Shown: one piece after another, positions 6,247 through 33,021 of the stretch | Position numbering within the stretch: position 1 is the stretch's first letter | Layout: each line of letters begins with the position of its first letter | IMG/VR virus record: IMGVR_UViG_3300023110_001595 | Location: 11,783 to 75,782 of that record | Length of the DNA stretch: 64,000 nt | Direction: 5' to 3' (one strand) | Source of the DNA: a virus | Notes under the pieces: generated by a model | Told to the model about the DNA's origin: nothing | Seen by the model: only the letters and a program-made list of their open reading frames with translations | Database searches by the model: none | Position numbers and translations under genes: made by a program

Positions 6247-7796
6247 GTCTATTTTTGTGTGTAATACCAAAGCACAGCGTAAATGTGCCGCCTTTGAGTC
6301 TTGGTTTTTTACAAGGGGCTTGTAAAAAACACGGAGTGAATGTACAAATACGTGATTTTAATTTTGACTTATGGCAAAAAACAATTTATACAGACAAATG
6401 GCACAGTATTTGGCTCGAGACAAATCAAACATTATTCAAAGGCGAAGAATTTAATAAGTTTTGTGAAGAAATGTATGACAATGAGATACATTCTTGGGCA
6501 AAAGAAATTGTTGCTACAGATCATACACATATTGGTATTAGTTGTTTTAGTCATAGAAGTTTGCCTACATTTAAAAAACTTGCCACAGCAGTTAGAAAAT
6601 TAGATCCTAAAAAAATTATTATTGTAGGTGGTGCTCCTATGACACAATATGGCAAACATATTTTAGAAATGGATCTTGCAGATTTTGTAGTTTTGAGTGA
6701 AGGTGAGGAAGTATTACCTAATATTGTTAAAGGAAAATACAAACCTGGTATTATAGAAACAAAACAAATTGACAATTTAGATAATCTAGAAATTCCAGAC
6801 TATACAGGTTTAGATATAACACAATACACAGGAGGTTCTCCTGTAGGTGATCAAGTAAGAGATGTAAAATATAAAAAGCGTAACGAACTAGCAATTATTG
6901 GTAGTAGAGGTTGTGTTAGAAAATGCACATTTTGTGATGTAGAAGCATATTGGCCTAAATTTCGTTGGCGTAGCGCACAAAACATATTTGACGAAATGAT
7001 GCACTACAAAGATACTTATAGTATTGATAGGTTTTTCTTTTATGATAGCTTAGTAAATGGTAACACAAAACAATTTGAAGAGTTACTTGATCTAATTATT
7101 GCTGCGGGTTCGCCATTTAAAGGAATGCAAGGACTTGCAATATTTAAAAGAATGCCTGAACGTATATTTAAAAAAATGCGAAAAGCAAGATGGCATAGCA
7201 TGATTATTGGAGTTGAAAGTTTTAGCCAAGAAGTGCGTGATCATATGCGTAAAAAATTCTCTAACAAAATAATGCATGAAAATTTAGAACATTACAAAAA
7301 ATATAAAATAAATTTAGTACTCTTAATGATTGTGGGTTATCCTGGCGAACTAGAAAAACATCATAAAGAAAATTATGAATGGATGAAAAATAACAGACAA
7401 TTTGCAGGTAATCCTATCAAACAAATCGAAGTTGGGACTACAATGTTAGTATTTCCTGGTTCTCCTGTGTTTTATGAAAATATGTTTGAATACTATGTAG
7501 ATGATAACGGAGATTGGGTAGTAACTAACGGAAAAGAAATAAACAATATGAAAATCCGAAACGCAAGACGTAAAGATTTGATAAAATGGGCTGAAGAATT
7601 TGGGTTAGGAACTAATAGTGTTTATGGCACTGGTGGACAACTAGTAGGTGATGTTGAAGATAGAGACATTGTAAATAAAATACATAAATTAGAACACAGC
7701 ACGGATCTAAAATTAGAAGATGAATATGTAAAACAAGTCTTAGGTTGGGAAAGTGATCCTAATCGTCAGACACATGAATTTTGGCAAATGTTATAA
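6243..7796 (+). CDS. Cobalamin-binding radical SAM enzyme (class B methylase-like)
   Basis: PPLSLGFL, IGIS, IIVGG and EGEE in a B12-binding domain; SRGCVRKCTFC; IGVESFS; MIVGYPGE. Confidence 0.9.
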   Translation: MSLFLCVIPKHSVNVPPLSLGFLQGACKKHGVNVQIRDFNFDLWQKTIYTDKWHSIWLETNQTLFKGEEFNKFCEEMYDNEIHSWAKEIVATDHTHIGISCFSHRSLPTFKKLATAVRKLDPKKIIIVGGAPMTQYGKHILEMDLADFVVLSEGEEVLPNIVKGKYKPGIIETKQIDNLDNLEIPDYTGLDITQYTGGSPVGDQVRDVKYKKRNELAIIGSRGCVRKCTFCDVEAYWPKFRWRSAQNIFDEMMHYKDTYSIDRFFFYDSLVNGNTKQFEELLDLIIAAGSPFKGMQGLAIFKRMPERIFKKMRKARWHSMIIGVESFSQEVRDHMRKKFSNKIMHENLEHYKKYKINLVLLMIVGYPGELEKHHKENYEWMKNNRQFAGNPIKQIEVGTTMLVFPGSPVFYENMFEYYVDDNGDWVVTNGKEINNMKIRNARRKDLIKWAEEFGLGTNSVYGTGGQLVGDVEDRDIVNKIHKLEHSTDLKLEDEYVKQVLGWESDPNRQTHEFWQML

Positions 7797-8903
7797 TTTT
7801 CTTTTTGGTATTTTACTATCAGCACTACTTACACAACTATCTGTTATACATGGCATAGCAGAATCAAAGAGTTTAAATCCTGTTTCTATATTGCCTAGTG
7901 GAACATCGTGACAACTGTACGAACGTTTAATACTTCCATCAGGTTCTCTAATTATAATTCCTTGATAGCCAGCATTACAACTCCAACCTTTGAACTTGTT
8001 AAAATTAAATGCATTAAATCTTTCTGCTTGATCCATATACCATGCTTTCCCATCTTTGTCTCTAAATTCAACTTGAAAATGCCAAGGCACACTTGCATCT
8101 GGTTTATGATATGCATCAGCAGGTATCTCAAACTTAGGACTAGGACGTCCTGACCATTTTCGTTTTACTTCTGTGTAGGCCCTTTGTGGCATTCCGTTCC
8201 AGAGTCGTTTGAGGTCTTCTTCTTTGTATCCGTCAACCACTCTTGACGCAGTAGGATCGGACTGTGGTTTGAGGGTAACGTTGATTCCTTGTTCGTGGAA
8301 GAAGAGTGCGTTTTCCCAGTCTCTCTCGAACCACTCAGGTACCATAACCATATTAATGGTAATCTGTACATCATGTTCTTGACACAGGATTAACTTGTCT
8401 GCAAAGTCCTGCATCTTCTCCTTTGTATCTAAATGTTCTGTGTGCAGACTTGCTGTTATACTTGCTCTATGGAATGGCTTTACACATTCTACATACTGTT
8501 CAAACCATTTCATAGGGCGTGAACAGTTTGATGTCATATGGACACTAGTATAGTTAGTGTTATCAACATCGTTGGCAAGATGCTCCAAAATATCCAAGTA
8601 ACCAGGATGGAAAGTAGGTTCCCCACCGCTAAGGCTAAAATGGAAACTATTAAATCTATTCTCACGTGCTTGCCTTTTTATCTCATCGATTGTATGAAGA
8701 CAGAGTTCTGTAGGTCTATGGTCTTTACGATCGCTACGGGCATAAGGCCAACAATAACTGCATCGGTAGTTACAGAATCTTCCAAGTAACCAAGATACTG
8801 TGAATATGTCACGATACAATAAAGTACGCTGACCAACGCTAACGATGTCATCAAACGGTATCTTAGTGAAGTCATAGTTACTCCATTTTAAATCTTCAGT
8901 CAT
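7791..8903 (-). CDS. Radical SAM enzyme with C-terminal Twitch-like Cys cluster (subfamily A)
   Basis: CNYRCSYC, SGGEPT, C-terminal FKGWSC..C..C..C. Confidence 0.9.
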   Translation of the reverse strand: MTEDLKWSNYDFTKIPFDDIVSVGQRTLLYRDIFTVSWLLGRFCNYRCSYCWPYARSDRKDHRPTELCLHTIDEIKRQARENRFNSFHFSLSGGEPTFHPGYLDILEHLANDVDNTNYTSVHMTSNCSRPMKWFEQYVECVKPFHRASITASLHTEHLDTKEKMQDFADKLILCQEHDVQITINMVMVPEWFERDWENALFFHEQGINVTLKPQSDPTASRVVDGYKEEDLKRLWNGMPQRAYTEVKRKWSGRPSPKFEIPADAYHKPDASVPWHFQVEFRDKDGKAWYMDQAERFNAFNFNKFKGWSCNAGYQGIIIREPDGSIKRSYSCHDVPLGNIETGFKLFDSAMPCITDSCVSSADSKIPKRKL

Positions 8904-8908
8904 ATTTT

Positions 8909-8937
8909 ATTATACTCTATTCCTATATATTTGTCAA
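8909..8937 (-). promoter_or_regulatory. Consensus sigma70 promoter TTGACA-17-TATAAT, probably leaderless
   Basis: -35 at 8932-8937, -10 at 8909-8914, ATG only 5 nt downstream of the -10. Confidence 0.8.
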
Positions 8938-8942
8938 TTAAA

Positions 8943-9590
8943 TTATAAAGAGCCAAACGCCCATTTACGTTCTTTACACCACCAACAAGCATCACAGTGT
9001 CCTAAAAACCCTATTCTATGTTCAACTTCGCAACTTCTTGTAAGAGGAAACAATTCGTAAGTTAATCCATAATGATCATACAAAGATTTTATGACTTTTT
9101 TATCACTGTTGGTAAAAGGCGTACAAAAAGTATCAGCAATAAAGATGGGACGTTCTAAATTTGGATTACGTGTAATTTGTTCGGTATTCCAACTCGGTCC
9201 ACAAAAACTGTCAGCTATATCTTTAGGAGGATTAGCTGTGAGTGCTGTGTACAAATATGCAGAATTTTTAGAGGTTTCTTGCCCTGCTACATAGTTACAA
9301 AATGCAGGACTGTCTTGCACTTCTGCATAACTTATGTAATGTTTTACATTCCAATATCCTGTAAGTTGGATACATTTTTCAATAACATTAGTAGACGTAA
9401 TAGCTGTGATTCTACTTCTTTCATTGTTTGCAAGTGTATGTATGTGTATTGTACCTTGTTTTTTATGTTTCATCAAAATGTACAATAATAACGAACTATC
9501 TGCGCCGCCTGAGCACAAAAGAGAAATGTCTTTGTTTTCGCAAAATGGTATGTATAAATCAGCTATTTTAATTTCTTGCATCACAAACAA
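8943..9590 (-). CDS. QueC-like PP-loop ATPase (paralogue 1)
   Basis: SGGADS PP-loop and TRSC..HCDACWWCKER Zn motif. The true start may be the ATG at 9581. Confidence 0.8.
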   Translation of the reverse strand: MFVMQEIKIADLYIPFCENKDISLLCSGGADSSLLLYILMKHKKQGTIHIHTLANNERSRITAITSTNVIEKCIQLTGYWNVKHYISYAEVQDSPAFCNYVAGQETSKNSAYLYTALTANPPKDIADSFCGPSWNTEQITRNPNLERPIFIADTFCTPFTNSDKKVIKSLYDHYGLTYELFPLTRSCEVEHRIGFLGHCDACWWCKERKWAFGSL

Positions 9591-9607: not shown

Positions 9608-9610
9608 TGT

Positions 9611-10552: not shown

Positions 10553-11338
10553 TTGGTTAAAATATGATTCAAAGTATTTTTTGATTAATTTTGTCCAAAC
10601 TTTTTGATGTAAATGATATCCATCGGGATAAATGAAAACATTTTTTCTAATATTTTCATCGTCGGGTTTGAAATTATAAAGCTCACAAACTTTATGATCA
10701 AGCGTAAAATTACCTATTGTTTTAAAATTGTGTAAAGAAAATTCTCTTTGCACTCTAGTTTCATATATTATATCATTATCTACACTGAACCATATTACTT
10801 GATGTCCAAACATTTTTATTAATGCATTTATTGCTAAAAGTTTAGAAATTTGTTCTTCGGCTTCCATTCTTCTGTCAGACATTGTTTTAACACGAAGTAT
10901 ACTTTTTATTGTTTTTTTATCTATTTCTAAATCTTCGCCGTTCCATAATTTACTGATGCCATAGTAACAAATATATTTTTCCCATACACCGCGATCTTCT
11001 GTTCCTAAAATACTTTGATCACTCCAAAACCCTGGCAAACCGTCTACCATGTCCCATTCTTTATATTCTAACAAATTCTTTCTATAATAATCTTGATATC
11101 TTCCTATAGTAGGTATTTCAGCAAATATTAAACATTTTTCTTTTTTATGTTTATTCATTATACCGTGCATACGAGAAAAATAACTTTCTATACCTAGTGC
11201 ATATATCCCATAATTACTAAATTCTACATCATAATTATCAGTTACAAATGTTCCCATTGTATTCCATCTAGGAACTGTATGGCTTGTTCCAAATAATATT
11301 ACTCTATTAAAATTTTCCAAACGCCCAATACCTTTCAT
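10541..11338 (-). CDS. SGNH/GDSL-like protein
   Basis: LFGTSHT, NYG and C-terminal DGYH (DxxH). Confidence 0.5.
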   Translation of the reverse strand: MKGIGRLENFNRVILFGTSHTVPRWNTMGTFVTDNYDVEFSNYGIYALGIESYFSRMHGIMNKHKKEKCLIFAEIPTIGRYQDYYRKNLLEYKEWDMVDGLPGFWSDQSILGTEDRGVWEKYICYYGISKLWNGEDLEIDKKTIKSILRVKTMSDRRMEAEEQISKLLAINALIKMFGHQVIWFSVDNDIIYETRVQREFSLHNFKTIGNFTLDHKVCELYNFKPDDENIRKNVFIYPDGYHLHQKVWTKLIKKYFESYFNQLIN

Positions 11339-11957
11339 GGCACCACCAACAATCTTTACAAGGTTTTGTAAAATCCTCGGTCACATCCTTCCATCCTTCG
11401 CAACTTCTTGTAATTGGAAAAAGACTATCTAAAATACCATATTTTTTGTATTTTTCAGCAAGTTTATCTTTAGTTAATTTTCCGTAGGGCAAATAAAGTG
11501 CGGGTTGGATAAAATCAAAGAATAAACGTTTTCCTTCTTTTCGATCAGGTACAGGACAGGTTTCAACAATATCTATAGTTTTATTATCAATTACAACTAC
11601 GGCGTCTTTGACCGGAGCCATACTAACTGCATTCATTTGTAAATCAATATTGTATTTTTTATAAATTTCTGTTTGAGCTTTATCAAAAAAATCTTTTTGT
11701 GGTGCTGGTACATAATGGATATGATGTTTTACTATTAGATTATTGTTAAAATAATTACTTATAAATCGAACAACATTAGCAGCAACAGCACTATTCCAAT
11801 TTTGTTTCAAAGAATGCGAAAGAGTGAGAACGTGTATATCCTTTTTATATGAATTATCAACACAAGTTTTTACCAATTCAAATAGCATAAGCGAACTATC
11901 TGCGCCACCACTACAATTTACTAAAATGTTATTGTAATCTTTAATATAATTATTCAC
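11307..11957 (-). CDS. QueC-like PP-loop ATPase (paralogue 2)
   Basis: SGGADS and TRSCEG..PCKDCWWCHER. Confidence 0.8.
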   Translation of the reverse strand: MNNYIKDYNNILVNCSGGADSSLMLFELVKTCVDNSYKKDIHVLTLSHSLKQNWNSAVAANVVRFISNYFNNNLIVKHHIHYVPAPQKDFFDKAQTEIYKKYNIDLQMNAVSMAPVKDAVVVIDNKTIDIVETCPVPDRKEGKRLFFDFIQPALYLPYGKLTKDKLAEKYKKYGILDSLFPITRSCEGWKDVTEDFTKPCKDCWWCHERYWAFGKF

Positions 11958-12672
11958 GCCATTTTCCTAAATTGTATCCTGGATACTTTTCAGCAATCAT
12001 ATCAAAAACAAGTTTTGCAACTAACTTATTTCCTTTGCCATTCATATGCATACCTTTGTCTAAAACAAAAGTATCTGGAAATCCAAGAGTTTCTTCTATA
12101 CTTGTACAATTATTATGTTTATTTTTATTGAACCAAGAAAACGTAATATTATCAATTCCTATGTTATCAAGTATTACATCTCCCGCCATAAGAAATGCTC
12201 TATCATATTGTTCCATTACTTCATGGTGTGTATGTTTATAATATGACGTATGTAATTTTTGTTTTGTTCTTTCATTATATAATTTGCTTTGTAGGCCATT
12301 TGTTGTGCTTGTAAATATGCACAAATGAGGATTATAATACTTTCTATGCATTGCATAATATCTTACATCAATTCCTATCATCCAATTAAGCAAATTATTT
12401 TCAAATTCTATGTTAGGGTTTACATAATGATGTCTATAAGGAGTTGTAATTTGTCTAATTATAATGTCTGGTTTAATTTTATAAATTGCTCTTTCCATAA
12501 GTCGATAAGCAAGGAAATTACTACCTCCTCCTATTCCTAAATTAAACACTTTTGAATTAGGTATTAGTTGCTGCAATTGATAAGGATAAGTTTCTTTATG
12601 AGTACGAATACCAGTACAAAACCCATCTGTATAACTACATCCTACACACACTATTTTCATTTTATATTCCAC
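11950..12672 (-). CDS. SGNH/GDSL-like hydrolase or acyltransferase
   Basis: VGCSYTDG, NLGIGGGSN and DKGMHMN. The start may be the ATG at 12660. Confidence 0.7.
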   Translation of the reverse strand: MEYKMKIVCVGCSYTDGFCTGIRTHKETYPYQLQQLIPNSKVFNLGIGGGSNFLAYRLMERAIYKIKPDIIIRQITTPYRHHYVNPNIEFENNLLNWMIGIDVRYYAMHRKYYNPHLCIFTSTTNGLQSKLYNERTKQKLHTSYYKHTHHEVMEQYDRAFLMAGDVILDNIGIDNITFSWFNKNKHNNCTSIEETLGFPDTFVLDKGMHMNGKGNKLVAKLVFDMIAEKYPGYNLGKWRE

Positions 12673-13690
12673 ATTTTTCCGAACACAATGGTAATAATCT
12701 TCTCTTAAAGTTTCTTGGTAAGTCTTTTTGAAAAAAGGTATTACTTAATACTTCTAGCATACTATGATGATTTAAATTATTAAAGTTTTCACCATAAAGT
12801 TCTATTTTTTCATCTAACCAGCCAAATCTTCTGCGATCATCTGGTCTTCCTGTGTGCATACTAAAATAACAACAAGGCCAGACTTCTCCCATTTGGTTAA
12901 TTTGTATACGTGATAAGCGTGTCCAAGGACAAGGACTTTTTCTTTTCATTTGTTCTGCTGTTACAACTTCAATTAATGGTATAGAATCATCAAACCATTC
13001 AACACTTTTTCGTAGTCTATCAACTTTCAAAGATTTAGGAGCAGTAATTTCTCCTGCTGGCATACCTTTATACTCCATTACAGGTATGTAAGTGTCAAAA
13101 CTTCTGTTCAATACAAATTCAATGAAGCCCATTTTTTTTGCTCTAGCACTTGCCTCTTCAATTTGATGTATATTATGATCAAAAACAATCATTCTCCAAC
13201 GTGCGAGTCCACCAGCGTCTATATATGCCTTTGCATTTTTCATAACAGCGTCAAAATTTACACCACGTCTGTATATGTGATTAGTATCTTCTAATCCATC
13301 AACACTAAATGTTACTACAGAAGCAGGAATCTTTTGTGTGACAATTGCTAAATTACGCCAAAAATTTTCAAACCTTGCGCCGCCGTTGGTATGAATGTTT
13401 AATCTAACTTTTTCTCCTGCCACAGAATACAAATATTCTAACATTTGTATAAATTTTGGATGACTAGATATGTCGCCAAAGTTTCCATTAAAGCTAATCT
13501 TTGCAGTATTTGTTTCCGCTGCAAAATCACAAATTTTTTGCCAAACTTTTTCATCTATGTGTTGTAACTTAACAAAAGGACTTACAGGGCCTCCTTGTAC
13601 GTTTCTAATACAGGCGCCGCAAAAACTATTACAATAACTTGTTACATCTACTTGAATTTCGAAAACATTGTAAGGGTCTATCGCTTGCAT
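12662..13690 (-). CDS. Radical SAM enzyme with C-terminal Twitch/SPASM domain (subfamily B)
   Basis: CNSFCGAC, GNFGD, TNGG, FSVDGL.DTNHIYR and CPW..GEVWPCC..C..C. Confidence 0.9.
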   Translation of the reverse strand: MQAIDPYNVFEIQVDVTSYCNSFCGACIRNVQGGPVSPFVKLQHIDEKVWQKICDFAAETNTAKISFNGNFGDISSHPKFIQMLEYLYSVAGEKVRLNIHTNGGARFENFWRNLAIVTQKIPASVVTFSVDGLEDTNHIYRRGVNFDAVMKNAKAYIDAGGLARWRMIVFDHNIHQIEEASARAKKMGFIEFVLNRSFDTYIPVMEYKGMPAGEITAPKSLKVDRLRKSVEWFDDSIPLIEVVTAEQMKRKSPCPWTRLSRIQINQMGEVWPCCYFSMHTGRPDDRRRFGWLDEKIELYGENFNNLNHHSMLEVLSNTFFQKDLPRNFKRRLLPLCSEKCGI

Positions 13691-24391: not shown

Positions 24392-25115
24392 AATATTTGC
24401 CTATAAAATTTAAAATTTCTTCATTTGTTTTAGGTCCGATATGCTGATTATCAAACGCTGTGTCTAGTCTGATAATGTGAGATACATTAAAAGCAGCAGC
24501 AGTAAAATCCTCTAAGGCAAATTCTACTGTTTTAATGTTAAATAAATTTAACATTTTTATAGTTGTTTCCTTTGCCCATAAAGAATTATATTCTATTAAA
24601 TTTCCATATCGCATTAAAGATTTAAATATTTTTGATCTGCCTCCTTCTGCAAGTATGCTTGCAACTGAAGGTGTATTACCTTCATAAGGAAAACATAGTC
24701 TCATTTGCTTTGGCCATTGTATAACAACTAATTTAGGTAATTTTATTTCAGATGTTACTAAATTTAAAACATTCATTAGAATAATATTTGTACTGCCGCC
24801 GGAAATTCCTAAATTATACACTGGAATATTTAATTTATCTTCTAACAAATTACTGTATCTTTCTTTTTCATATTGAAACAATCCGTATGTATTACTGCAA
24901 CCGAATGCTAATGCGTAGTCATTGTTAAACTGAAATTCTGGTGTTCTATATCCAAAAGTATTTGTGTTATAATATATAGGATTTTTTGATAGATTTGCAT
25001 AGTGCCAATTATCGCCTCTACGTTTTTTTTGCTTGTTCCAAGTATGTTCGTCTACAGAATTATCCCAATTCTTAATAGACTTTTTAATTCCAACTTTAAG
25101 AAAAGGACTAGACAT
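24384..25115 (-). CDS. SGNH/GDSL-like protein
   Basis: FGCSNTYG, NLGISGGS and DNQHIG. GGAG RBS before the ATG at 25115. Confidence 0.7.
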   Translation of the reverse strand: MSSPFLKVGIKKSIKNWDNSVDEHTWNKQKKRRGDNWHYANLSKNPIYYNTNTFGYRTPEFQFNNDYALAFGCSNTYGLFQYEKERYSNLLEDKLNIPVYNLGISGGSTNIILMNVLNLVTSEIKLPKLVVIQWPKQMRLCFPYEGNTPSVASILAEGGRSKIFKSLMRYGNLIEYNSLWAKETTIKMLNLFNIKTVEFALEDFTAAAFNVSHIIRLDTAFDNQHIGPKTNEEILNFIGKYYV

Positions 25116-26247: not shown

Positions 26248-26464
26248 CTAAAATTAACCTAACATCTTTTCCAGGACTTGTTTTGCTAGGTAAACCTCCA
26301 TACTGCTCTATGTACCATTCAATAACAGCCTTATACCAGTTTTGACTGTTATGATGTGCTTTTTTATTAAACTGCCAAATATTGTTATTTGTTGCTTGCA
26401 TTGTGCTCAATGCTCTAGCACTTTCTTTTTGTAATTGTCTTACATCTAAATCATTTATATCCAA
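26240..26464 (-). CDS. Small hypothetical protein (74 aa)
   Basis: Overlaps both neighbouring genes in the operon, consistent with translational coupling. Confidence 0.7.
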   Translation of the reverse strand: MDINDLDVRQLQKESARALSTMQATNNNIWQFNKKAHHNSQNWYKAVIEWYIEQYGGLPSKTSPGKDVRLILDD

Positions 26465-27491
26465 TTTTCATAAACCTTTTGTACTGTGTCAAATCTAGTT
26501 CACCTTCATATAAAACATTAGACATTGGTGTTTTTTTGCTAAATTCTTCTAACGTTTTGCTGCAATTAACGTGTTCTTTAATTTCAAAATAATTATTATT
26601 TTGTAATACTATTAGTTGACCTGGAATAATTTTACTATACCAATCTTGAAAATCTTCAATATGTTCAGTGCTGGTATTTATAATTGTATTAGGATAACTC
26701 CATAGAGTTTCAATGGTACCGTTATTTTTTTCTACGTCATATATGTGTTCGTCAAATCGTAGTTCATGTATGTCTTGTGTACAGGATTTAAATTTCCATT
26801 CGTTTATAATCCAAGGTTTGTTAAAAATATTTGAAATTTGTAAAGTACTTGGGTCTATATCGAAACTTATAATTTCATCTACATTAATGTCAGATTCAAA
26901 AATCATAGTAGCTAATGTTGCATACCATCCTGCACATAAAAATACAACACCTAAATCTCTGTTAATTTCTTTTAATTTTTCAACTAGCCATTGTTTACTT
27001 TTTATTTGTCCTCTGCTGAGGCAATCTTTATCAAATTCAATATTATTTGTTATTAGATCTTTTAGAGCTTTTACAAAATGACTATCTGTATGTTTTTCTA
27101 GTATCCTAAACATACTCCACATATTGTCATCTAATATTAGTTTTTTTAAATCTTCGTCGCCAATCATTCTAAAAATACTGTGTATATTATTTTCGGTTAC
27201 TGATTTTCTTAAATCTTCGTTTCCTGGTAGTAATCTAAATAAACTGTGTAAATTATTTTCTAAAACTGCTTTACGCAAATCTTCCAAATCGCCTATGCAT
27301 CTTTTGTTTTCAACAATTCTAAAAATACTATGTATATTATTTTCTAAAACAGCTTTACGTAATTCTTCATTGTCACTTAATTTCAGAATGCTATGCAAAT
27401 CTTCATCAACATATGATCTACGTAATAATTCGAAATTTGTATCGTTTTTATTTAATATTTCAAATCTATCTAGTACTTCAAATATTTCCAT
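26451..27491 (-). CDS. Class I SAM-methyltransferase-like protein with N-terminal helical repeats
   Basis: C-terminal VVFLCAGWY..SFDID..IINTSTEH; five ~19-aa repeats in the N-terminal third. Confidence 0.55.
   Translation of the reverse strand: MEIFEVLDRFEILNKNDTNFELLRRSYVDEDLHSILKLSDNEELRKAVLENNIHSIFRIVENKRCIGDLEDLRKAVLENNLHSLFRLLPGNEDLRKSVTENNIHSIFRMIGDEDLKKLILDDNMWSMFRILEKHTDSHFVKALKDLITNNIEFDKDCLSRGQIKSKQWLVEKLKEINRDLGVVFLCAGWYATLATMIFESDINVDEIISFDIDPSTLQISNIFNKPWIINEWKFKSCTQDIHELRFDEHIYDVEKNNGTIETLWSYPNTIINTSTEHIEDFQDWYSKIIPGQLIVLQNNNYFEIKEHVNCSKTLEEFSKKTPMSNVLYEGELDLTQYKRFMKIGYK
27099..27432 (-). repeat. Intragenic tandem repeat E(D/E)LRK(A/S)V.ENN(I/L)HS(I/L)FR, 5 copies
   Basis: Visible in protein and DNA: attctaaaaatact(a/g)tgtatattattttc occurs near 27166 and 27316. 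Confidence 0.85.
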
Positions 27492-28512
27492 CAAATTTTT
27501 CCTTAAGCCAATCAAAGTCATTAATTAAACGTAATTCATCTGGTTTGTTTTTGTTTCTTGCGCCATATGATGCACCTGCTTTTGCTCCAATAAGAGCATA
27601 TTCTCCAAATTTAGGATCACCTTCAATATATGTACACCAAGTTCTTAAACGTTCATTTGTTTCTTGGCTTTTTTGCCTATCAATTACTTTACTACTTAGT
27701 TTACAACATTCTCTAAAAGCACTCTTCCACGTATTAAAAGGATCTGTGTTAAAGGCTGTAACGTTAGATATTTTATTCATTGCTACAAATTTATCACTAA
27801 CACTTGTTGTCATATCTGGTTTACTTACATCCATAACAAGAGTTTTTTCTGTTGGAAAAAGTTTCACTCCGCCATATCCATATACTAGTCCATTAACTGG
27901 ATTCATACTGCGCCATACGTGTACGGCTTGCTTATTGTGATGTTCTGGAATATAATCAAAAGAAAATTCGTCTGTTAGTTGTGCATCACCATCTATGATC
28001 CAAAACATATCAGTTTCACACAAACTTGCAGCAGCAATATGAGCTTGATGTATTCCTTTGACACCGTGTATACGTTTTACATCTGGAAAACGTGCTAAAA
28101 CACGTTCATAATTTTCATCAGCATTAGGTTCATTGTAACTTATAAAAACTTTATCAAAATTTGAGATAACAGGTTTACTTGCTTGAATAGGTACGAATTT
28201 TTTGTTTATATAAAATCTTGCTTTTAATTCACCAGGTCCATGATGACTGTTTTTTGGCATTAAACACACACCGTCATAAAAGTCACCATTCTTAAATACG
28301 TGAGTATATGTGTTGTTATATTCATCAACTGTATAATTAAAATCAAAGTCTTCGTCAACCACAAGGTTATCATAAACAATCCAAAGCATTTTTGTAAGAC
28401 TTTTACGTTTTGCTTGTGGAACATTTTCAGCATATTTTGCTGTGGGAAATCTAGTTTTTAGTTTTGTGAATTGTAACTCAGACGGATTGCCAATATAAAA
28501 AATATCATACAT
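27478..28512 (-). CDS. GT-A-like glycosyltransferase with a degenerate duplicated N-terminal domain
   Basis: FISYNEPNADENY..HGVKGIHQAHIAAA..FWIIDGD..GYGGVKL..WKSAFRE; the N-terminal half echoes the same motifs (LWIVYDN..FDFNY). Confidence 0.65.
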   Translation of the reverse strand: MYDIFYIGNPSELQFTKLKTRFPTAKYAENVPQAKRKSLTKMLWIVYDNLVVDEDFDFNYTVDEYNNTYTHVFKNGDFYDGVCLMPKNSHHGPGELKARFYINKKFVPIQASKPVISNFDKVFISYNEPNADENYERVLARFPDVKRIHGVKGIHQAHIAAASLCETDMFWIIDGDAQLTDEFSFDYIPEHHNKQAVHVWRSMNPVNGLVYGYGGVKLFPTEKTLVMDVSKPDMTTSVSDKFVAMNKISNVTAFNTDPFNTWKSAFRECCKLSSKVIDRQKSQETNERLRTWCTYIEGDPKFGEYALIGAKAGASYGARNKNKPDELRLINDFDWLKEKFDGNI

Positions 28513-28518: not shown

Positions 28519-28547
28519 ATTATATGAGATTTGTATTCTAATGTCAA
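28519..28547 (-). promoter_or_regulatory. Consensus sigma70 promoter TTGACA-17-TATAAT heading the main enzyme operon, probably leaderless
   Basis: -35 at 28542-28547, -10 at 28519-28524, ATG 6 nt downstream. Confidence 0.85.
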
Positions 28548-28584: not shown

Positions 28585-30042
28585 ATGGCAGATTTTATAC
28601 CAGGTGAAGCATATAGATTAGATATCGTTGGAGCAGACGAATCAGTAATTGTAGATAGTTGGCAAGGACAAGTAAAAGCAGATGTTGTATCATCAAATGG
28701 ATTGATACAAGTTGATGTTTCAACAGGTAAACTTTATGGACCAATGGTCGGTAATATAGAAGATACCGAAGGTAATGTAGTTTTCAATTTATCAGCACAA
28801 GTTTTAAAATCCGATCTAGAAGGTAGCGTGTATGATACAAGCGGTCAAATCAAACTTATCGACGGTATGACTGCTAGAGTTATAGCACCTGTTTATGGTA
28901 ATGTTGTTGACAGCGAAGGTACAACTATTGTTGATACTGCAAATAAAACTATAACTGCAACTACGTTTACTGGCGATTTTTACGGAGATTTGCACGGTAA
29001 CATTACAAGTGACAGTGTTATATATGGTACATTTAGCGGCGACTTCAACGGTAACGCTTACGGTGAGTTTTTTGGCGACTTAGTTGGAGAGCACACGGGC
29101 GATGTTATTGGAGATTTAACTGGTAACGTTACCGGTAATGTAACAGGTAATGTAAATGGACATTTACTTGGTGCTAATTTGAATACAGCAGAAGGTGAAC
29201 CTCCTGAAGTAAAAATAACAAATTTAAACAACACAATCGAACATCCACAATATAGCTTTTACGGCGGCTTAGAACATCATATTGATCCTGATCCAGGTGC
29301 TGTTGCAAACGGTCCTATTGTTTATCTAGGTGATACTAGAGCAGATACTGCACTACGTGCTCATGTACATCATTATAACGGACAAGAGATTATCAAGTTA
29401 CATGATCCGGTTGATCCTACCAGCGAAACAGCACCTGCTACTATTAGAGGACATTTTGATGGAAACTTTATATACAGTGACGTAAATGGTGCACAGGATG
29501 CATTAACTGTTAGTGAACAAGGCACTGTGTTACACGCTGTAAACGGTGTTGTAACAATTGGTGGCTATATTACAGATGCAATAGATTGCGATATAAATAT
29601 TTTCTCAGATGCAATCACAGTGGAAACAAGTGCCGATGAAGAATTTTTAAATGTCAAAAACTACAATGGTACAGTAAATGCAAAAACTGCTATAGGAACA
29701 GATAATCCACTTGCAATTATTTCAGGTGAAGGTTACAATGGAACAAACTTTGTAACTGGTGGCTTGTTTGGTATCTATGCAGATGCAGCACCAACTGATA
29801 CTCATGTAGAAAGTAAATTTGTTGTTAGCTTACCGAAAGGAAACGACAATCACAGTCAAACAAATCCAAGACGTTTGAGCTTTGACGGTGACGGTGTATT
29901 GACAGTGCCTGTATTTAAAGCAAGAGGCACTACTTTTGCAGACAGAGATTCAATGACAGCAGAAGCTGGCATGATTATTTTTAATCAAAATACAAATAAA
30001 TTCCAAGGCTACACAGGTAGTTCTTGGGTTGACTTACACTAA
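28585..30042 (+). CDS. Fibre-like virion structural protein
   Basis: G(D/N)xxG tetrad repeats (GDFYGDLHG..GNVTGNVTGNVNG), acidic composition, and a C-terminal GMIIFNQNTNKFQGYTGSSW fibre module. Confidence 0.65.
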   Translation: MADFIPGEAYRLDIVGADESVIVDSWQGQVKADVVSSNGLIQVDVSTGKLYGPMVGNIEDTEGNVVFNLSAQVLKSDLEGSVYDTSGQIKLIDGMTARVIAPVYGNVVDSEGTTIVDTANKTITATTFTGDFYGDLHGNITSDSVIYGTFSGDFNGNAYGEFFGDLVGEHTGDVIGDLTGNVTGNVTGNVNGHLLGANLNTAEGEPPEVKITNLNNTIEHPQYSFYGGLEHHIDPDPGAVANGPIVYLGDTRADTALRAHVHHYNGQEIIKLHDPVDPTSETAPATIRGHFDGNFIYSDVNGAQDALTVSEQGTVLHAVNGVVTIGGYITDAIDCDINIFSDAITVETSADEEFLNVKNYNGTVNAKTAIGTDNPLAIISGEGYNGTNFVTGGLFGIYADAAPTDTHVESKFVVSLPKGNDNHSQTNPRRLSFDGDGVLTVPVFKARGTTFADRDSMTAEAGMIIFNQNTNKFQGYTGSSWVDLH

Positions 30043-30086: not shown

Positions 30087-31076
30087 ATGATCTATATTGA
30101 TGGAATAGAATATCTAGAAAGTGATAACGATCACGTAAGATCCGCAGTTATTAACTATCTTGAAAACTGGAATATTACAGTAACTACCAGCGGTACAACT
30201 GGTAATCCAAAAACATATCAACACAGTGCAGAACTAATGCGCAAAGTTGCAGAATACAATGCAGAATATTTTATGCTTGATTCAAACAGTAGTATGATGG
30301 CATTATACAATCCTAGAGGCATTGGTTTTACAAGTATGAGTTTGTATCCTTGTCATGTTGCAAACTGTGATACATTTATTGAGACAACAGTTGCAAATCT
30401 ACCAGATAGAATACGTGAAGTGCAGCCAACAAATATGTTGATACTTCCTAATGTTTGGAAAACTTGGCATAGACACAAAAAGTGGCAAAACTTGGATTTG
30501 AGCTGTATGAAGCAGATGCAAGTAGGCAGTGATATTACACCTACAGGACTTATGGAAGATTTGCGTTCAAAAGGTGCGCAACAGGTTAACACAGGTTACG
30601 GCAGCACAGAAGTACCTCCTATCATTATGAGTACAGAACGCCAAGACGTATATAAGTTAACCGATATTAATCCTAACATCGAATACAAGTTTGAGAAACA
30701 CGATGATGGCACAACTGAGTTTTGTTGTAAGTACAAAAATCAAACAGAATGGTGGAACAGTGGCGACCTAGTAGAGTTTACAGACACAGATGAGTTTGCA
30801 CTATCGGGACGTAGATTTAATGCATTCAAAATGGAAAACTGTGGTGACAGAGTTTATCCAGAACAAATCGAAAAAGTTGCTATTGAAAATGGTGCAAGTT
30901 TAGCACTATGTAGAAAAGTTGCACACGAATGTGTTGTGTATTACACAGGTGATTTGGATATTACTAAGTTTACAAAACAACATAAGTGCGCATACGAAAT
31001 CACAGCAAAAAAAGTAGACGAAATCAAAGTAGACGATAATCTGCGTAAGATTGATAGGACACAAGTTTTTGTATAG
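30087..31076 (+). CDS. Compact AMP-forming adenylation enzyme (ANL/acyl-CoA ligase family)
   Basis: TTSGTTGNPK, GYGSTE, SGD, GR..VYPEQIE and C-terminal RKIDR. Confidence 0.85.
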   Translation: MIYIDGIEYLESDNDHVRSAVINYLENWNITVTTSGTTGNPKTYQHSAELMRKVAEYNAEYFMLDSNSSMMALYNPRGIGFTSMSLYPCHVANCDTFIETTVANLPDRIREVQPTNMLILPNVWKTWHRHKKWQNLDLSCMKQMQVGSDITPTGLMEDLRSKGAQQVNTGYGSTEVPPIIMSTERQDVYKLTDINPNIEYKFEKHDDGTTEFCCKYKNQTEWWNSGDLVEFTDTDEFALSGRRFNAFKMENCGDRVYPEQIEKVAIENGASLALCRKVAHECVVYYTGDLDITKFTKQHKCAYEITAKKVDEIKVDDNLRKIDRTQVFV

Positions 31077-31683
31077 ACTAGAAGTTTACGACGGTACACA
31101 GGATTTAGAAGATTGGTACGAAGGTGCTGCTGCTAGAGGCTTTTACAACAACCATAACAAAACAGTGCTTATTGATTATATTGATAAGCACGAAGATGCT
31201 ACACTAATACTTTTATATTATAAAGACAGAGTAATAGGCACAACAATCACACACAGTTTGCGTCAACTAGGAATATTAGGTAAAGATGCACATCGTATTG
31301 CTGCACGTACAGCATTGCTTATTGAACGTGTGGATGACATACGTGGACACAAAGTACACAACAATGATCGCAGCCCAATGAATCATCACACAAGTCAAAT
31401 GCTAACACCTGCTTGTTTTTATTACTTAGGGCTAGACAAGCCTATGTATGTAAGCACAAACAACTTAGAGACAGCAAGCCAACGTAAAGTGCATAGAACT
31501 TGGGCAAAGATTATGCATAGACACAAATATCTTAAAGATCCTTTTGAACTAGAGTACAAAGGTGCATTTCAAACATTTTGGAAAGTAGATGTTGAACACT
31601 GGTTAAATGATTTGTCTAAAGTGCAATGGCCCGAATCAAAACAAGTGCTAGACGTATTTGCTGCACAACTCAAAAAAGTCTGA
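31051..31683 (+). CDS. Hypothetical protein, possibly GNAT-fold acyltransferase
   Basis: Coupled to the ANL gene; LILLYYKDRVIG..HRIAART strand pattern; weak assignment. Confidence 0.4.
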   Translation: MIGHKFLYRLEVYDGTQDLEDWYEGAAARGFYNNHNKTVLIDYIDKHEDATLILLYYKDRVIGTTITHSLRQLGILGKDAHRIAARTALLIERVDDIRGHKVHNNDRSPMNHHTSQMLTPACFYYLGLDKPMYVSTNNLETASQRKVHRTWAKIMHRHKYLKDPFELEYKGAFQTFWKVDVEHWLNDLSKVQWPESKQVLDVFAAQLKKV

Positions 31684-33021
31684 CATTTCTGGAAACACTT
31701 GTTTGTGATCAACTCCACGTCTGCGTCCTTGTTCTTTAAAGAAGTTGTGGAAATCTCTACGTCCTTGTATAACTTTTTCTAACGGATATTCTGTTGTATC
31801 CATGTAATCAACAACACGTCTAAACTTTTCATATTCTATAGTGCTAAATGCATCTTTGCGATTGTCATCTACATTTTCTTTTATAAACTGCAAATGGTCA
31901 CGCATATAAGTCATATAGTTGTTTGGCAGTATATTAATATCATATTGTAGAGGCTCTTTAAGATGTGGTGTATCAAAACCCAAACGTTGCCATCTGTGTG
32001 TTTCTACATCATTATACTTGGCACGCCATTCTAATATTTTTTCTAGTAGTGTGCGGAATGTTGTTACACTGAATATGTTAAACGTAATCATCAACACCAT
32101 AGGTGCTTCACAGTTACGCATAAAATAATCCAAGTTGCGTTCAAAAACTTCGATGTCTAATCCGTCACGTATGTATTCTGCACGTTTACCCCAAGTGTCA
32201 ATACTTGTAAACATTTTAAAGCGTCTAATCTTGTTGTTTGTTAACAGGTCATTTACACGGTTTGTAAACTTTTCTAACTGCTTTGGTTTGCCACCTAAGT
32301 TGCTGTTACAGTTTAATTCAAGTTCTGGCTTAGGGTCTGCGTCCAACATATCAAACAGTTTATATGTGCTTTTTTGTATTGTAGGCTCACCACCTGTAAT
32401 ACGCAATATGTGTAACTCTTTACTTAATTCTGGCCACCAGCGCCAAAATGCATCTAAATACGGATTGTTTTCTTCTTCAAATATTTGAAACCAATCAATG
32501 TCGCATCTATGGTTTTTTACGTTTGTATATGGGCCATGTTGTTTGATTTCTTGATAATATCTACTGCTGGCTTTTGGATGACAGTATCCACAACGGAAGT
32601 TACACTCATTACCAAAACTAACTTCTAAGTATTCTGGATTTACATCAAACTCTGCACCACCTTCTTTTACAGCGTTTAGTCTATGTTTAAAGAAGATAGT
32701 TTGATTACGCTGTTTTCTATCACTTACGTAATCTTTGCCAAGTGCTTCAATCTTCCAACAATAGTTACAACCAGTAGGTTGTTCGCCACGCATCATTGCA
32801 GCACGTTCTTGCTTCTTTTGCGCTGTGTTGTGTATTGCACTTGGATTTTCTAACAACGGTGCTGTGTCAATCTTATGAGGAGCAGGATGATAACAACTGT
32901 GTGTTTCACCTGTTTGGAAATATATATTGGCATGATACCATTTAGCAAAACAAAACGTTGGTGATATTTCTTGTGTTATACCATCAATGCGTTTAATTTC
33001 TTCGCTTTCGCTACGCTCCAT
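31648..33021 (-). CDS. Radical SAM enzyme with N-terminal Twitch domain (subfamily C)
   Basis: CFAKW..HSCYH..CNYC, CNFRCGYC and TGGEPT. Confidence 0.9.
   Translation of the reverse strand: MERSESEEIKRIDGITQEISPTFCFAKWYHANIYFQTGETHSCYHPAPHKIDTAPLLENPSAIHNTAQKKQERAAMMRGEQPTGCNYCWKIEALGKDYVSDRKQRNQTIFFKHRLNAVKEGGAEFDVNPEYLEVSFGNECNFRCGYCHPKASSRYYQEIKQHGPYTNVKNHRCDIDWFQIFEEENNPYLDAFWRWWPELSKELHILRITGGEPTIQKSTYKLFDMLDADPKPELELNCNSNLGGKPKQLEKFTNRVNDLLTNNKIRRFKMFTSIDTWGKRAEYIRDGLDIEVFERNLDYFMRNCEAPMVLMITFNIFSVTTFRTLLEKILEWRAKYNDVETHRWQRLGFDTPHLKEPLQYDINILPNNYMTYMRDHLQFIKENVDDNRKDAFSTIEYEKFRRVVDYMDTTEYPLEKVIQGRRDFHNFFKEQGRRRGVDHKQVFPEMSDFFELCSKYV

What the first reader, a model, noticed from the sequence alone, without database searches (positions are those of the whole stretch)
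7791..33021. Ten Twitch/SPASM radical SAM paralogues in three architectures, five with the auxiliary Fe-S domain at the N-terminus
Seen: subfamily A (7791, 13691) has VxWxLGRxCNYxCSYC and FKGWxC. Subfamily B (12662, 22245, 23312) has GxxGD, VDGxxDTNHxYR and FxHN with a C-terminal PCC. Subfamily C (14827, 16140, 18639, 20802, 31648) has an N-terminal Cys cluster ahead of CxxxCxxC. All retain intact CxxxCxxC. Inference: retention of ten divergent, Fe-S-costly paralogues implies distinct sequential reactions or substrates, a source of unexplored radical chemistry.
Basis: partly seen in the sequence, partly recalled or inferred. Interest (0 to 1): 0.8.

Follow-up and report, generated by a model that had tools for sequence, protein, structure and literature searches.

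The report
Phage island of radical-SAM sugar-editing enzymes
A fragment of an abundant, uncultured marine giant phage carries, inside its tail-fibre region, eleven intact and very different iron-sulfur "radical SAM" enzymes mixed with sugar-transferring enzymes; they most likely edit a sugar coat, but the product and its target have never been tested.

Summary
All ten ORFs are radical SAM (rSAM) enzymes with intact CX3CX2C, every quoted motif is present, and they split into three families. An eleventh, B12-binding rSAM at 6243-7796 was missed. Family C (five genes) belongs to the catalogued but unstudied NCBIfam NF033640 (N-terminal twitch). B shares C's catalytic core with the Cys domain at the C-terminus. 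A's auxiliary domain rests on conserved cysteines only. None reaches the cutoff of MoaA, QueE, NrdG, anSME or viperin, and no solved structure is close. Nine genes have dN/dS of 0.03-0.10.

The window is about 21% of a roughly 350-kb marine myovirus. 206 related viral contigs carry the island; 80 loci hold 121 rSAM orthogroups around a conserved core.

The best reading, at about 50%, is a swappable cytoplasmic glycan-building and tailoring island. Support: five glycosyltransferase-like genes, SGNH-like, SDR-like and QueC-like PP-loop partners, and a bacterial counterpart island with a sugar-activating enzyme. The substrate is unproven; peptide and nucleotide substrates remain possible.

Two papers (2017, 2020) noted such arrays in passing, and this scan found them repeatedly on other DNA.

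The parts
6243..7796 (+). 11th radical SAM: B12-binding rSAM (class B, methyltransferase-like), last gene of the + strand operon.
   Evidence: Pfam Radical_SAM 1e-19 and B12-binding 1.7e-12; CX3CX2C at residue 224
7791..8903 (-). A1: family A rSAM with four conserved C-terminal Cys and its own sigma70-type promoter
   Evidence: Pfam 3e-15; C309/C331/C352/C357 in 27/27 sequences, dN/dS 0.05
8909..8937 (-). Perfect sigma70 consensus (TTGACA-17-TATAAT) in the 40-bp gap upstream of A1
   Evidence: 12/12 match
8943..9590 (-). PP1: QueC-like PP-loop ATPase (SGGADS plus C-terminal CxxCxxC)
   Evidence: Pfam QueC 22.3 bits against a cutoff of 22; PP-loop; family alignment invariants
11307..11957 (-). 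PP2: QueC-like PP-loop ATPase
12662..13690 (-). B1: family B rSAM with C-terminal twitch/SPASM-type Cys domain; the rarest of the ten (5 of 80 loci)
   Evidence: Pfam SPASM 24 bits against 21.5
13691..14827 (-). A2: family A rSAM with nine conserved C-terminal Cys
   Evidence: dN/dS 0.085
14827..16140 (-). C1: N-terminal-twitch rSAM (NF033640)
   Evidence: 373.7 bits against a cutoff of 170
16140..17312 (-). C2: N-terminal-twitch rSAM (NF033640); probable true start ATG at 17285
   Evidence: 239.7 bits
17278..17832 (-). Short SDR-like protein, conserved in 34 of 80 loci
   Evidence: weak NCBIfam SDR hits, E 2e-6
17816..18646 (-). PP3: QueC-like PP-loop ATPase directly downstream of C3
18639..19994 (-). 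C3: N-terminal-twitch rSAM (NF033640); probable start ATG at 19967
   Evidence: 187.8 bits; dN/dS 0.033
19964..20923 (-). PP4: QueC-like PP-loop ATPase directly downstream of C4; probable start ATG at 20812
20802..22202 (-). C4: N-terminal-twitch rSAM, the lineage's core member (82-96% identity in 206 viral contigs)
   Evidence: 422.9 bits; AlphaFold model pLDDT 92.8
22245..23315 (-). B2: family B rSAM (C-terminal Cys domain)
23312..24391 (-). B3: family B rSAM, near-core (72 of 80 loci)
   Evidence: core aligns with family C by hhalign, 98.5%
24384..25130 (-). DUF6473 / SGNH-like protein. Two more SGNH-like genes lie at 11950-12672 and 10541-11338.
   Evidence: Pfam DUF6473 1e-7; trio profile matches GDSL/AlgX at E 2e-4 to 3e-3
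26451..27521 (-). u356: four helical repeats plus a possible class I methyltransferase-like domain; core partner (66 of 80 loci)
   Evidence: Atlas lead only, 0.94
27478..28512 (-). u344: nucleotide-diphospho-sugar transferase (GT-A) fold with DGD motif; first gene of the core operon
   Evidence: AlphaFold pLDDT 86.8; Foldseek top hits all GT-A; Z 9.3-11.2
28519..28547 (-). Perfect sigma70 consensus promoter upstream of u344, in the gap shared with the divergent fibre gene
   Evidence: 12/12 match; sequence read
28585..30042 (+). Fibre-like structural gene embedded in the island, divergent from the core operon; candidate acceptor protein (inference)
   Evidence: repeat-rich sequence; syntenic in relatives; identical fragments in RNA libraries
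30087..31076 (+). Short AMP-binding (ANL) enzyme, followed by a 210-aa ORF at 31051-31683
   Evidence: Pfam AMP-binding 5e-13
31648..33021 (-). C5: N-terminal-twitch rSAM, last gene of the operon that holds the GT8-like pair and u309
   Evidence: 298.4 bits; dN/dS 0.037
33021..33950 (-). u309: paralogue of the u344 GT-A-type domain (shared YxEPNA...HGVKG...VDGD block)
34485..36153 (-). Two GT8-like glycosyltransferase paralogues (34485-35336 and 35323-36153)
   Evidence: profile matches glycogenin (GT8) at E 1.8e-5 across the DxD region
3491..4288 (+). GT32-type glycosyltransferase in the adjacent + strand operon, with two desaturase-like and two Asp/Asn-hydroxylase-like genes
   Evidence: Pfam Gly_transf_sug 6e-15, Caps_synth 5e-9

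Best explanation
This is the enzyme part of a hypervariable host-recognition island of an uncultured marine jumbo myovirus. The island is a soluble, cytoplasmic glycan-building and glycan-tailoring toolkit. Five glycosyltransferase-like proteins would lay down sugars from nucleotide sugars. The eleven radical SAM enzymes would then carry out C-H chemistry on those sugars or their nucleotide-activated precursors: oxidation, epimerisation, deoxygenation and, for the B12 enzyme, C-methylation. QueC-like PP-loop enzymes, each usually placed directly behind an N-twitch rSAM gene, would use ATP to convert an oxidised position (carboxyl or carbonyl) into an amide-type group. SGNH-like, SDR-like, methyltransferase-like and acyl-activating enzymes would add further decoration. 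Related phages keep a small core (u344, u356, B3, B2, C4) and swap the other cassettes, so different phages would make different glycans. The most likely acceptors are the phage's own fibre proteins encoded in and around the island; the host envelope is the alternative.

Shown: the gene identities, families, conservation, synteny and cassette turnover. Inferred: the sugar substrate, each reaction type, the rSAM-to-PP-loop order, the acceptor and the timing of expression.
For: - Sugar-handling partners in the island: Pfam GT32; u344 has a GT-A / nucleotide-sugar transferase fold (all top Foldseek hits; Z 9.3-11.2) and u309 is its paralogue; two GT8-like genes match glycogenin at E 1.8e-5; three SGNH-like proteins; one SDR-like protein.
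- A true bacterial chromosomal island, flanked by BipA, Dus and YceG, combines about 8 NF033640 genes with a B12-rSAM, a GDSL-like protein and a nucleotidyltransferase-kinase fusion of the sugar-activating type.
- Characterised twitch rSAMs act on small molecules: BtrN oxidises an aminocyclitol using a fully Cys-ligated auxiliary cluster as probable electron acceptor, and MoaA acts on GTP (PMC9012708). Family C keeps four conserved auxiliary Cys.
- The cassette pattern resembles O-antigen loci: 121 rSAM orthogroups in 80 loci with a small core.
- PP-loop genes follow a C-type rSAM in 61 of 85 cases, against 26% expected from gene frequency.
- There is no space for precursor-peptide genes, because the genes overlap or lie less than 75 bp apart. 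There are no membrane proteins apart from the two desaturase-like ones.
- The island lies between receptor-binding genes: a fibre with Mtd_N, tail fibres, and a 4602-aa ORF with CBM5/12.
- Pelagimyophage host-recognition clusters likewise mix glycosyltransferases and rSAM cassettes (PMC7029224).
Against: - No substrate has been shown.
- The C4 model matches peptide-modifying rSAMs (CteB, SkfB, anSME), sugar or nucleoside rSAMs (DesII, BlsE) and viperin equally, at Z 10.5-11.5 over the core only.
- SPASM/twitch enzymes are mostly peptide maturases.
- No nucleotide-sugar synthesis gene (dehydratase, aminotransferase or nucleotidyltransferase) was found in the phage window itself.
- u344's fold is shared with IspD-type nucleotidyltransferases.
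- Best-scoring sigma70-type promoters head the enzyme operons. If real, this means early expression, which fits action on the host at least as well as virion decoration.
- The PP-loop adjacency counts are inflated by shared ancestry of the loci.
- Earlier agents of this scan reached the same 'sugar' inference from similar indirect evidence, so that agreement is not independent support.
Confidence: 0.5

Rival explanations
1. Protein maturation (RiPP-like). The rSAMs act directly on amino-acid residues of a phage protein, for example the embedded fibre-like protein or neighbouring fibres. They would install cross-links, epimerised or methylated residues alongside the Asp/Asn hydroxylases, and the glycosyltransferases would add sugars separately.
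For: The top profile and fold matches include the peptide maturases SkfB, CteB, anSME and SuiB. Most characterised SPASM enzymes are peptide maturases (established knowledge, Haft and Basu 2011, cited in PMC9012708). Three Asp/Asn beta-hydroxylase-like genes and a B12-rSAM lie nearby, a combination seen in proteusin pathways (my recollection, not tested). The fibre gene is syntenic with the core operon.
Against: No NCBIfam peptide-maturase model comes near its cutoff. Pfam found no leader-recognition (RRE-type) domain. There is no small precursor ORF and no room for one. The matches to sugar- and nucleotide-acting rSAMs are equally good. The bacterial counterpart island carries a sugar-activating enzyme.
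Confidence: 0.2
2. A free small molecule. The island makes a diffusible aminoglycoside-, nucleoside- or glycolipid-like metabolite that acts on the host or on competitors, rather than a decoration of virion or envelope.
For: Characterised twitch rSAMs (BtrN) work in aminoglycoside pathways (PMC9012708). The island holds an AMP-ligase plus a small ORF, SDR-like and nitroreductase-like genes, and desaturases. The Bdellovibrionota island looks like a metabolite cluster with a kinase-nucleotidyltransferase.
Against: No exporter, resistance or scaffold-forming gene (cyclitol synthase, PKS or NRPS) was seen. The constant position inside the fibre module and the O-antigen-like cassette turnover fit a surface structure under diversifying selection better.
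Confidence: 0.12
3. Nucleic-acid modification. The QueC-like PP-loop enzymes and rSAMs build modified bases (7-deazapurine-type or other) in phage DNA or in tRNA to evade host restriction.
For: The four PP-loop proteins have QueC's architecture, a PP-loop plus a C-terminal Cys motif (C-x2-C-x2-C in PP1-PP3, C-x2-C-x3-C in PP4). QueE is a radical SAM enzyme. A first-reader note on another genome reports a QueC-less deazaguanine locus elsewhere in a related phage (e1-5365217, unchecked).
Against: No TGT/DpdA, QueD or FolE in the 75.8-kb record, and no TGT in a 246-kb relative rated 67% complete or in three further relatives. The QueE model scores 18 bits against a cutoff of 260. The PP-loop profile matches QueC only at E 0.46. 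Five glycosyltransferase-like genes are unexplained by this reading unless the DNA is glycosylated.
Confidence: 0.07
4. Viperin-like nucleotide chemistry for defence or counter-defence. The rSAMs would make modified nucleotides that block host or competitor polymerases.
For: There are weak matches to pVip and viperin models (20-43 bits) and to viperin structures (Z about 10.5-11).
Against: The scores are far below the curated cutoff (42 against 180) and cover only the generic rSAM core. The viperin C-terminal nucleotide-binding part is not matched. Ten or more paralogues together with glycosyltransferases are not explained.
Confidence: 0.03

Closest known systems
NCBIfam NF033640, N_Twi_rSAM ('twitch domain-containing radical SAM protein')
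   Same: C1-C5 score 187-423 bits against a cutoff of 170, aligned end to end. They share the N-terminal Cys pattern C-x16/18-C ... C-x2-C ahead of CX3CX2C. Members occur in arrays and as tandem fusions.
   Different: It is a naming model only: no member has a known substrate or structure, and no paper in the searched library cites it. Families A and B of this island do not belong to it (30-44 bits).
Radical SAM cassettes in the host-recognition cluster of marine T4-like phages (Zaragoza-Solas 2020, PMC7029224; Nishimura 2017, PMC5332604, a 183-kb genome with 12 rSAM genes)
   Same: A hypervariable island inside the tail-fibre region of abundant marine myoviruses, mixing glycosyltransferases (GT8 prominent) with rSAM cassettes that differ between close relatives.
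   Different: Those papers only mention the genes, as Fe-S metabolism or as cassettes. They give no family assignment, architecture or function. This phage is not a pelagimyophage: its baseplate wedge protein is closest (about 35% identity) to the jumbo phages Atu_ph07, PA5oct, Phosso and SCTP-2, and relatives reach 246-353 kb.
BtrN and related twitch-domain rSAMs acting on small molecules (BtrN, MoaA)
   Same: One auxiliary [4Fe-4S]-type Cys set next to the rSAM core. Family C conserves four auxiliary Cys, as in BtrN's fully ligated cluster (PMC9012708). BtrN's twitch region gives a faint match to the N-terminal part of the C profile (E 0.16).
   Different: The domain order is reversed in C. 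There is no significant sequence match. Structural similarity is no better than to peptide maturases. Membership was not shown.
QueC (7-cyano-7-deazaguanine synthase), PF06508
   Same: PP1-PP4 have the SGGxDS PP-loop and a C-terminal Zn-type Cys motif. PP1 is just at the Pfam cutoff (22.3 against 22).
   Different: The full-length profile match to the QueC structure is not significant (E 0.46). The pathway partners were not found. There are four diverged copies, each tied to an rSAM gene.
Bacterial O-antigen / capsule loci and virus-encoded glycosylation islands
   Same: A small conserved core plus a long tail of interchangeable tailoring genes, with several glycosyltransferases and acyl- or methyl-handling enzymes.
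   Different: There is no flippase, polymerase or initiating phosphoglycosyl transferase and no membrane protein. The tailoring is dominated by radical SAM enzymes, which is unusual for such loci.

Membership tests
Radical SAM superfamily (PF04055) | CX3CX2C cluster motif and a Pfam score over 29.5 bits | tested here: met
   The motif is present once in each of the 11 genes. Eight of the 11 are over the cutoff; B1, B2 and C5 score 24.7-26.4 bits but have family-level support.
NF033640 N_Twi_rSAM | Whole-protein score over the curated 170 bits with end-to-end alignment | tested here: met
   C1 373.7, C2 239.7, C3 187.8, C4 422.9, C5 298.4 bits. A and B members score 30-44 bits, so they are not members.
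NF033640 N_Twi_rSAM | Auxiliary 4-Cys twitch module N-terminal to the rSAM core | tested here: met
   C9 is nearly invariant (at least 90%) and C27, C90 and C93 are invariant in the 70-sequence family alignment. All are conserved in 58/58 C4 sequences (window C4 plus 57 orthologues). Pfam SPASM matches residues 9-94 of C4.
SPASM/twitch domain (PF13186) | HMM score over 21.5 bits on the Cys-rich domain | tested here: inconclusive
   B1 24.0 and C4 24.9 bits are over the cutoff; B2 17.7 is below; B3, A1 and A2 have no hit. The conserved Cys patterns are compatible in all of them.
MoaA (TIGR02666) | Score over the curated 284 bits | tested here: not met
   Best score 39 bits.
QueE (TIGR03963) | Score over the curated 260 bits | tested here: not met
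   18 bits, for A1 only.
NrdG (TIGR02495 / TIGR02491) | Score over the curated 131 / 126 bits | tested here: not met
   At most 23 bits.
Anaerobic sulfatase maturase (TIGR03942) | Score over the curated 349 bits | tested here: not met
   At most 31 bits. The structural match to anSME is Z 11.3 over the core only, tied with unrelated rSAMs.
Viperin / pVip (NF038283; PADLOC pVip) | Score over the curated 180 bits and full-length coverage including the nucleotide-binding C-terminus | tested here: not met
   At most 42.5 bits, N-terminal half only.
QueC (PF06508) | PP-loop SGGxDS plus a C-terminal Zn Cys motif, with a score over 22 bits | tested here: inconclusive
   The motifs are present in all four proteins. 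PP1 scores 22.3 bits with no separate stretch passing; PP2 scores 15.8; PP3 and PP4 have no Pfam QueC hit. The match to the QueC structure is E 0.46.
QueC (7-deazaguanine pathway) | Co-occurrence with FolE, QueD, QueE and a TGT/DpdA transferase | tested here: not met
   None found in the 75.8-kb record. No TGT in four relatives of up to 246 kb. All these genomes are incomplete.
GT-A glycosyltransferases (u344 / u309) | Nucleotide-diphospho-sugar transferase fold with a DxD motif | tested here: met
   The top Foldseek hits listed are overwhelmingly GT-A glycosyltransferases. Z 9.3-11.2 over residues 115-255. A DGD motif is present. Activity and donor were not tested, and IspD-type nucleotidyltransferases tie for the fold.
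GT8 (u283 / u276) | Sequence-profile similarity to GT8 across the DxD region | tested here: met
   The family profile matches glycogenin-1 at E 1.8e-5, profile positions 9-106. Pfam itself found nothing for the single sequences.

The most novel reading that the evidence does not exclude
The N-twitch and C-twitch rSAM families, together with their paired QueC-like PP-loop enzymes, form a previously unrecognised combinatorial 'radical glycan-editing' system. The radical SAM enzyme would oxidise or rearrange a sugar C-H position, and the PP-loop partner would then amidate it with ATP. Abundant marine giant phages would shuffle more than 100 such cassettes to vary the glycan on their receptor-binding fibres, or on the infected cell, in an arms race over adsorption. 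This would be a new enzyme chemistry and a new layer of phage host-range variation.
Probability: 0.22. Interest if true: 0.8.

Novelty: new member of a known kind. Interest (0 to 1): 0.55.

Why it matters
The N-twitch radical SAM family is very large: 8,453 clusters at 50% identity with E <= 1e-3 to C4. It is concentrated in abundant uncultured marine phages, and no member has a known substrate, product or structure.

If these enzymes tailor glycans on phage fibres or host envelopes, they would represent unexplored radical carbohydrate chemistry. They would also be a hidden determinant of phage adsorption and superinfection in the ocean.

This window offers a practical entry point:
- a conserved five-gene core (u344, u356, B3, B2, C4) beside a candidate acceptor fibre gene;
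- clear rSAM-PP-loop gene pairs;
- a bacterial counterpart island for comparison.

Tried and rejected

- `fetch from genomes` failed once and worked later.

**Searches that gave little**
- The genome-contig scan gave only 7 loci. The 59-83% identity hits lie in MAGs of unrelated phyla (two Flavobacteriales, Neisseriaceae, Planctomycetota, Bdellovibrionales), so I treat them as mis-binned phage contigs, not host evidence.
- Single-sequence PDB searches for A2, B3 and C4 found nothing significant. The u344/u309 and u356 profiles found nothing in the PDB by sequence.
- Fusion partners of long homologues were mostly further copies of the same rSAM module, plus one TPR fusion, and gave no clue to function. 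Source names for distant homologues were generic.

**Ideas rejected or left open**
- T4-type late promoter TATAAATA: 5 matches against 14 expected, so there is no signal.
- The total number of sigma70-like sites is not above shuffles (94 against 88; 110 against 103). Only the placement of the best sites is notable.
- RNA evidence: short contigs identical to parts of C3, C4, B3 and the fibre gene occur in three salt-marsh metatranscriptome runs. Contigs cannot show strand, ends or level, and DNA carry-over is not excluded, so I do not count expression as shown and I name no habitat from it.
- Recent local duplication is rejected: paralogues are 20-32% identical while orthologues are 70-97%.
- Housekeeping roles (MoaA, QueE, NrdG, anSME) are rejected on curated cutoffs.

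Full report
**1. What the window is**

The window is bases 11783-75782 of a 75.8-kb IMG/VR virus record that CheckV rates 21% complete, which implies a genome of about 350 kb. The right half encodes baseplate wedge proteins, tail fibres and a 4602-aa ORF with a CBM5/12 module and FG-GAP repeats. The large baseplate wedge protein is closest, at about 35% identity, to the jumbo phages Atu_ph07, Phosso, PA5oct and SCTP-2. It is not closest to T4-like cyanophages or pelagiphages. G+C is 29-39% and no tRNA gene was found. Upstream of the window the record has another fibre gene with an Mtd_N domain and a further Asp/Asn hydroxylase. The enzyme island (about 900-38,600) therefore sits inside the receptor-binding module.

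**2. The observation**

All ten ORFs are radical SAM (rSAM) proteins with one CX3CX2C each.

The three families are real. Within-family BLASTP E-values run from 1e-7 to 1e-81 at 20-32% identity; between families they are 1e-3 or worse.

- **Family C.** All five genes pass the curated cutoff of NCBIfam NF033640, 'twitch domain-containing radical SAM protein' (187-423 bits against 170), aligned end to end.
- **Family B.** Profile-profile comparison shows that B shares C's catalytic core over 178 columns (probability 98.5%, E 2e-15).
- **Family A.** It aligns with B only over the first ~120 residues. It has no SPASM hit, but its C-terminal cysteines are conserved: four in A1 (27/27 sequences) and nine in A2 (10/10).

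An eleventh rSAM, B12-binding, abuts the first gene at 6243-7796. The record holds exactly eleven rSAM domains.

**3. Are the genes functional, and are they old?**

Against orthologues in related contigs, nine of the ten genes show dN/dS of 0.03-0.10, with every cluster cysteine conserved. B1 has no orthologue above 70% identity in the set. The paralogues are far more diverged (20-32%) than the orthologues (70-97%), so the array is not a recent local expansion.

**4. Distribution**

C4 has more than 2,000 homologue clusters at 82-90% identity in marine metagenomes, including Tara Oceans, some on contigs of 230-353 kb. 206 IMG/VR contigs carry it. The wider family comprises 8,453 clusters at 50% identity with E <= 1e-3. 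It includes fused proteins that are mostly two or three copies of the same module.

In the 80 loci fetched (C4 plus or minus 10 kb), each has 7-13 rSAM genes where the locus is full length. Clustering 615 rSAM ORFs at 50% identity or more gives 121 orthogroups: 79 C, 27 B, 14 A and 1 B12.

| Orthogroup | Loci (of 80) |
|---|---|
| C4 | 80 (by construction) |
| B3 | 72 |
| B2 | 46 |
| A2 | 41 |
| C1 | 33 |
| A1 | 31 |
| C3 | 26 |
| C2 | 25 |

Eighty-three groups occur in two or fewer loci. A 246-kb relative has 19 rSAM domains. The island is thus a small conserved core (u344, u356, B3, B2, C4) with a large pool of interchangeable cassettes.

**5. Distance from known enzymes**

No curated NCBIfam model other than NF033640 is approached: MoaA 39 bits against 284, QueE 18 against 260, NrdG 23 against 131, anSME 31 against 349, viperin 42 against 180, and all peptide maturases far below cutoff. 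PADLOC pVip hits are 20-43 bits and partial.

Single sequences find no solved structure. The C-family profile finds only the generic core of SkfB, viperin, CteB, BlsE and MoaA.

The AlphaFold model of C4 is confident (pLDDT 92.8). Its best structural matches tie at Z 10.5-11.5 over residues ~130-430 only: CteB, BlsE, DesII, anSME, SkfB and viperin. The fold therefore does not say whether the substrate is a peptide, a sugar or a nucleotide.

**6. The partners**

Most neighbours have no Pfam family, but several could be placed.

- **u344**, first gene of the core operon, folds as a nucleotide-diphospho-sugar transferase. The top Foldseek hits are GT-A glycosyltransferases; Z is 9.3-11.2 over residues 115-255; and it has a DGD motif. 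IspD-type nucleotidyltransferases tie for the fold. u309 is its paralogue.
- **u283 and u276** match glycogenin (GT8) at E 1.8e-5 as a profile.
- **A GT32 gene** lies in the adjacent + strand operon with two desaturase-like and two Asp/Asn-hydroxylase-like genes.
- **Three proteins** look SGNH-like, weakly (E 2e-4 to 3e-3, including AlgX). One is SDR-like and one is an AMP-binding enzyme.
- **u356** may contain a methyltransferase-like domain; this is a lead only.
- **Four diverged PP-loop proteins** have QueC's layout of SGGxDS plus a C-terminal Cys motif. Across loci, such a gene lies directly downstream of a C-type rSAM in 61 of 85 cases, against 26% expected from gene frequency. The loci are related, so this is not 61 independent events.

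Only the two desaturase-like proteins have predicted membrane spans by a crude hydropathy scan. Nothing resembles a flippase, polymerase or initiating transferase. Genes overlap or lie less than 75 bp apart, apart from one 204-bp gap, which leaves no room for small precursor-peptide genes.

**7. A cellular counterpart**

A Bdellovibrionota MAG contig flanked by BipA, Dus and YceG carries an island with about eight NF033640 genes, a B12-rSAM, a GDSL-like protein, a GatZ-like protein and a nucleotidyltransferase-kinase fusion of the sugar-activating type. The same family mix therefore occurs in a bacterial chromosome, next to an enzyme that makes nucleotide-activated substrates.

**8. Expression signals**

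Of eleven sigma70-like sites scoring 11/12 or better in bases 1-39,000, six lie in the short intergenic gaps directly upstream of, and co-oriented with, a first gene. These include both perfect 12/12 sites, at 28547 (upstream of u344) and 8937 (upstream of A1). The others are 37747, 36548, 30029 and 896. This suggests transcription by host-type RNA polymerase; it is an inference. Short contigs identical to parts of C3, C4, B3 and the fibre gene occur in three metatranscriptome runs, but this does not prove transcription.

**9. Reading**

The weight of indirect evidence favours a soluble glycan-building and tailoring island in which the rSAMs perform C-H chemistry on sugars and the PP-loop partners perform ATP-dependent amidation. 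That evidence is:
- five glycosyltransferase-like genes;
- acyl-, methyl- and redox-type helpers;
- the sugar-activating enzyme in the bacterial counterpart;
- the known small-molecule substrates of twitch enzymes such as BtrN (PMC9012708);
- O-antigen-like cassette turnover;
- the position within the fibre module.

The acceptor is unresolved. The lack of envelope-assembly genes fits cytoplasmic glycosylation of virion fibres. The early-type promoters and the proposal made for pelagimyophages (PMC7029224) fit modification of the host surface.

I put about 0.5 on the sugar-tailoring reading, 0.2 on direct protein maturation, 0.12 on a free metabolite, 0.07 on nucleic-acid modification and 0.03 on viperin-like chemistry. 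For the nucleic-acid rival, no TGT, QueD or FolE was found in the record, and no TGT in four relatives of up to 246 kb.

**10. Novelty**

The family is catalogued (NF033640). Arrays of rSAM genes in marine myovirus host-recognition islands were mentioned in 2017 (12 rSAM genes in a 183-kb T4-like genome, PMC5332604) and in 2020 (rSAM cassettes in pelagimyophage host-recognition clusters, PMC7029224), without analysis. This scan has also met such arrays on many other phage and bacterial windows, and earlier agents drew the same untested 'sugar' inference.

This window is therefore a new member of a known but functionally unexplained kind.
- B and C share one catalytic core, with the auxiliary domain on opposite ends.
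- PP-loop genes are paired with N-twitch rSAM genes.
- The cassette pool is quantified.
- u344 has a GT-A fold, and u283/u276 are assigned to GT8.
- Consensus sigma70-type promoters sit at operon starts.
- TGT is absent from a 246-kb relative rated 67% complete.

Noticed in passing
window 44809-58617 (-): A single 4602-aa ORF next to the baseplate genes, with a CBM5/12 carbohydrate-binding module (E 4e-12) and FG-GAP repeats. It is probably a giant fibre or adhesin.
   Followed up: partly
window 954-7796 (+): A + strand operon headed by an 11/12 sigma70 site with an extended -10. It holds two fatty-acid-desaturase-like membrane proteins, Asp/Asn beta-hydroxylase-like proteins, a GT32 and a B12-rSAM, which may be a lipid- or glycolipid-directed branch of the island.
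   Followed up: partly
window 1-912 (+), continuing from L088 10301: A large ORF spanning the window start, with a cupredoxin/plastocyanin-like domain (E 1e-5) and a weak subtilase-like region. It may be a structural protein with an Ig-like cupredoxin fold rather than an electron carrier.
   Followed up: no
window 9611-10552 (+): The only + strand gene inside the long - strand enzyme run. It has no family hit, and a first-stage note calls it nitroreductase-like. TATAAATA lies 6 bp upstream of its start.
   Followed up: no
window 26451-27521 (-), residues ~40-140: u356 begins with four tandem ~20-residue helical repeats (EDLRKAVLENNxHSxFR-like) ahead of a possible methyltransferase-like domain. 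The repeat number varies among relatives.
   Followed up: no
L043, L048, L050, L054, L057 (u309 homologues): In several relatives the u309-type GT-A gene is fused into proteins of 1,020-1,130 aa, and u344-type genes reach 440-940 aa, so these transferases occur as multidomain forms elsewhere.
   Followed up: no
L088 4613-7109 (+): An AAA ATPase followed by a DUF2201 metallopeptidase/VWA-like protein, a pair often seen together, lies upstream of the fibre genes.
   Followed up: no
L081, L082 (genome contigs): Two of the MAG bins that hold near-identical phage contigs are Flavobacteriales (Arcticimaribacter, Crocinitomicaceae). With about 33% G+C this is a weak hint at the host, but other bins are from unrelated phyla.
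   Followed up: no
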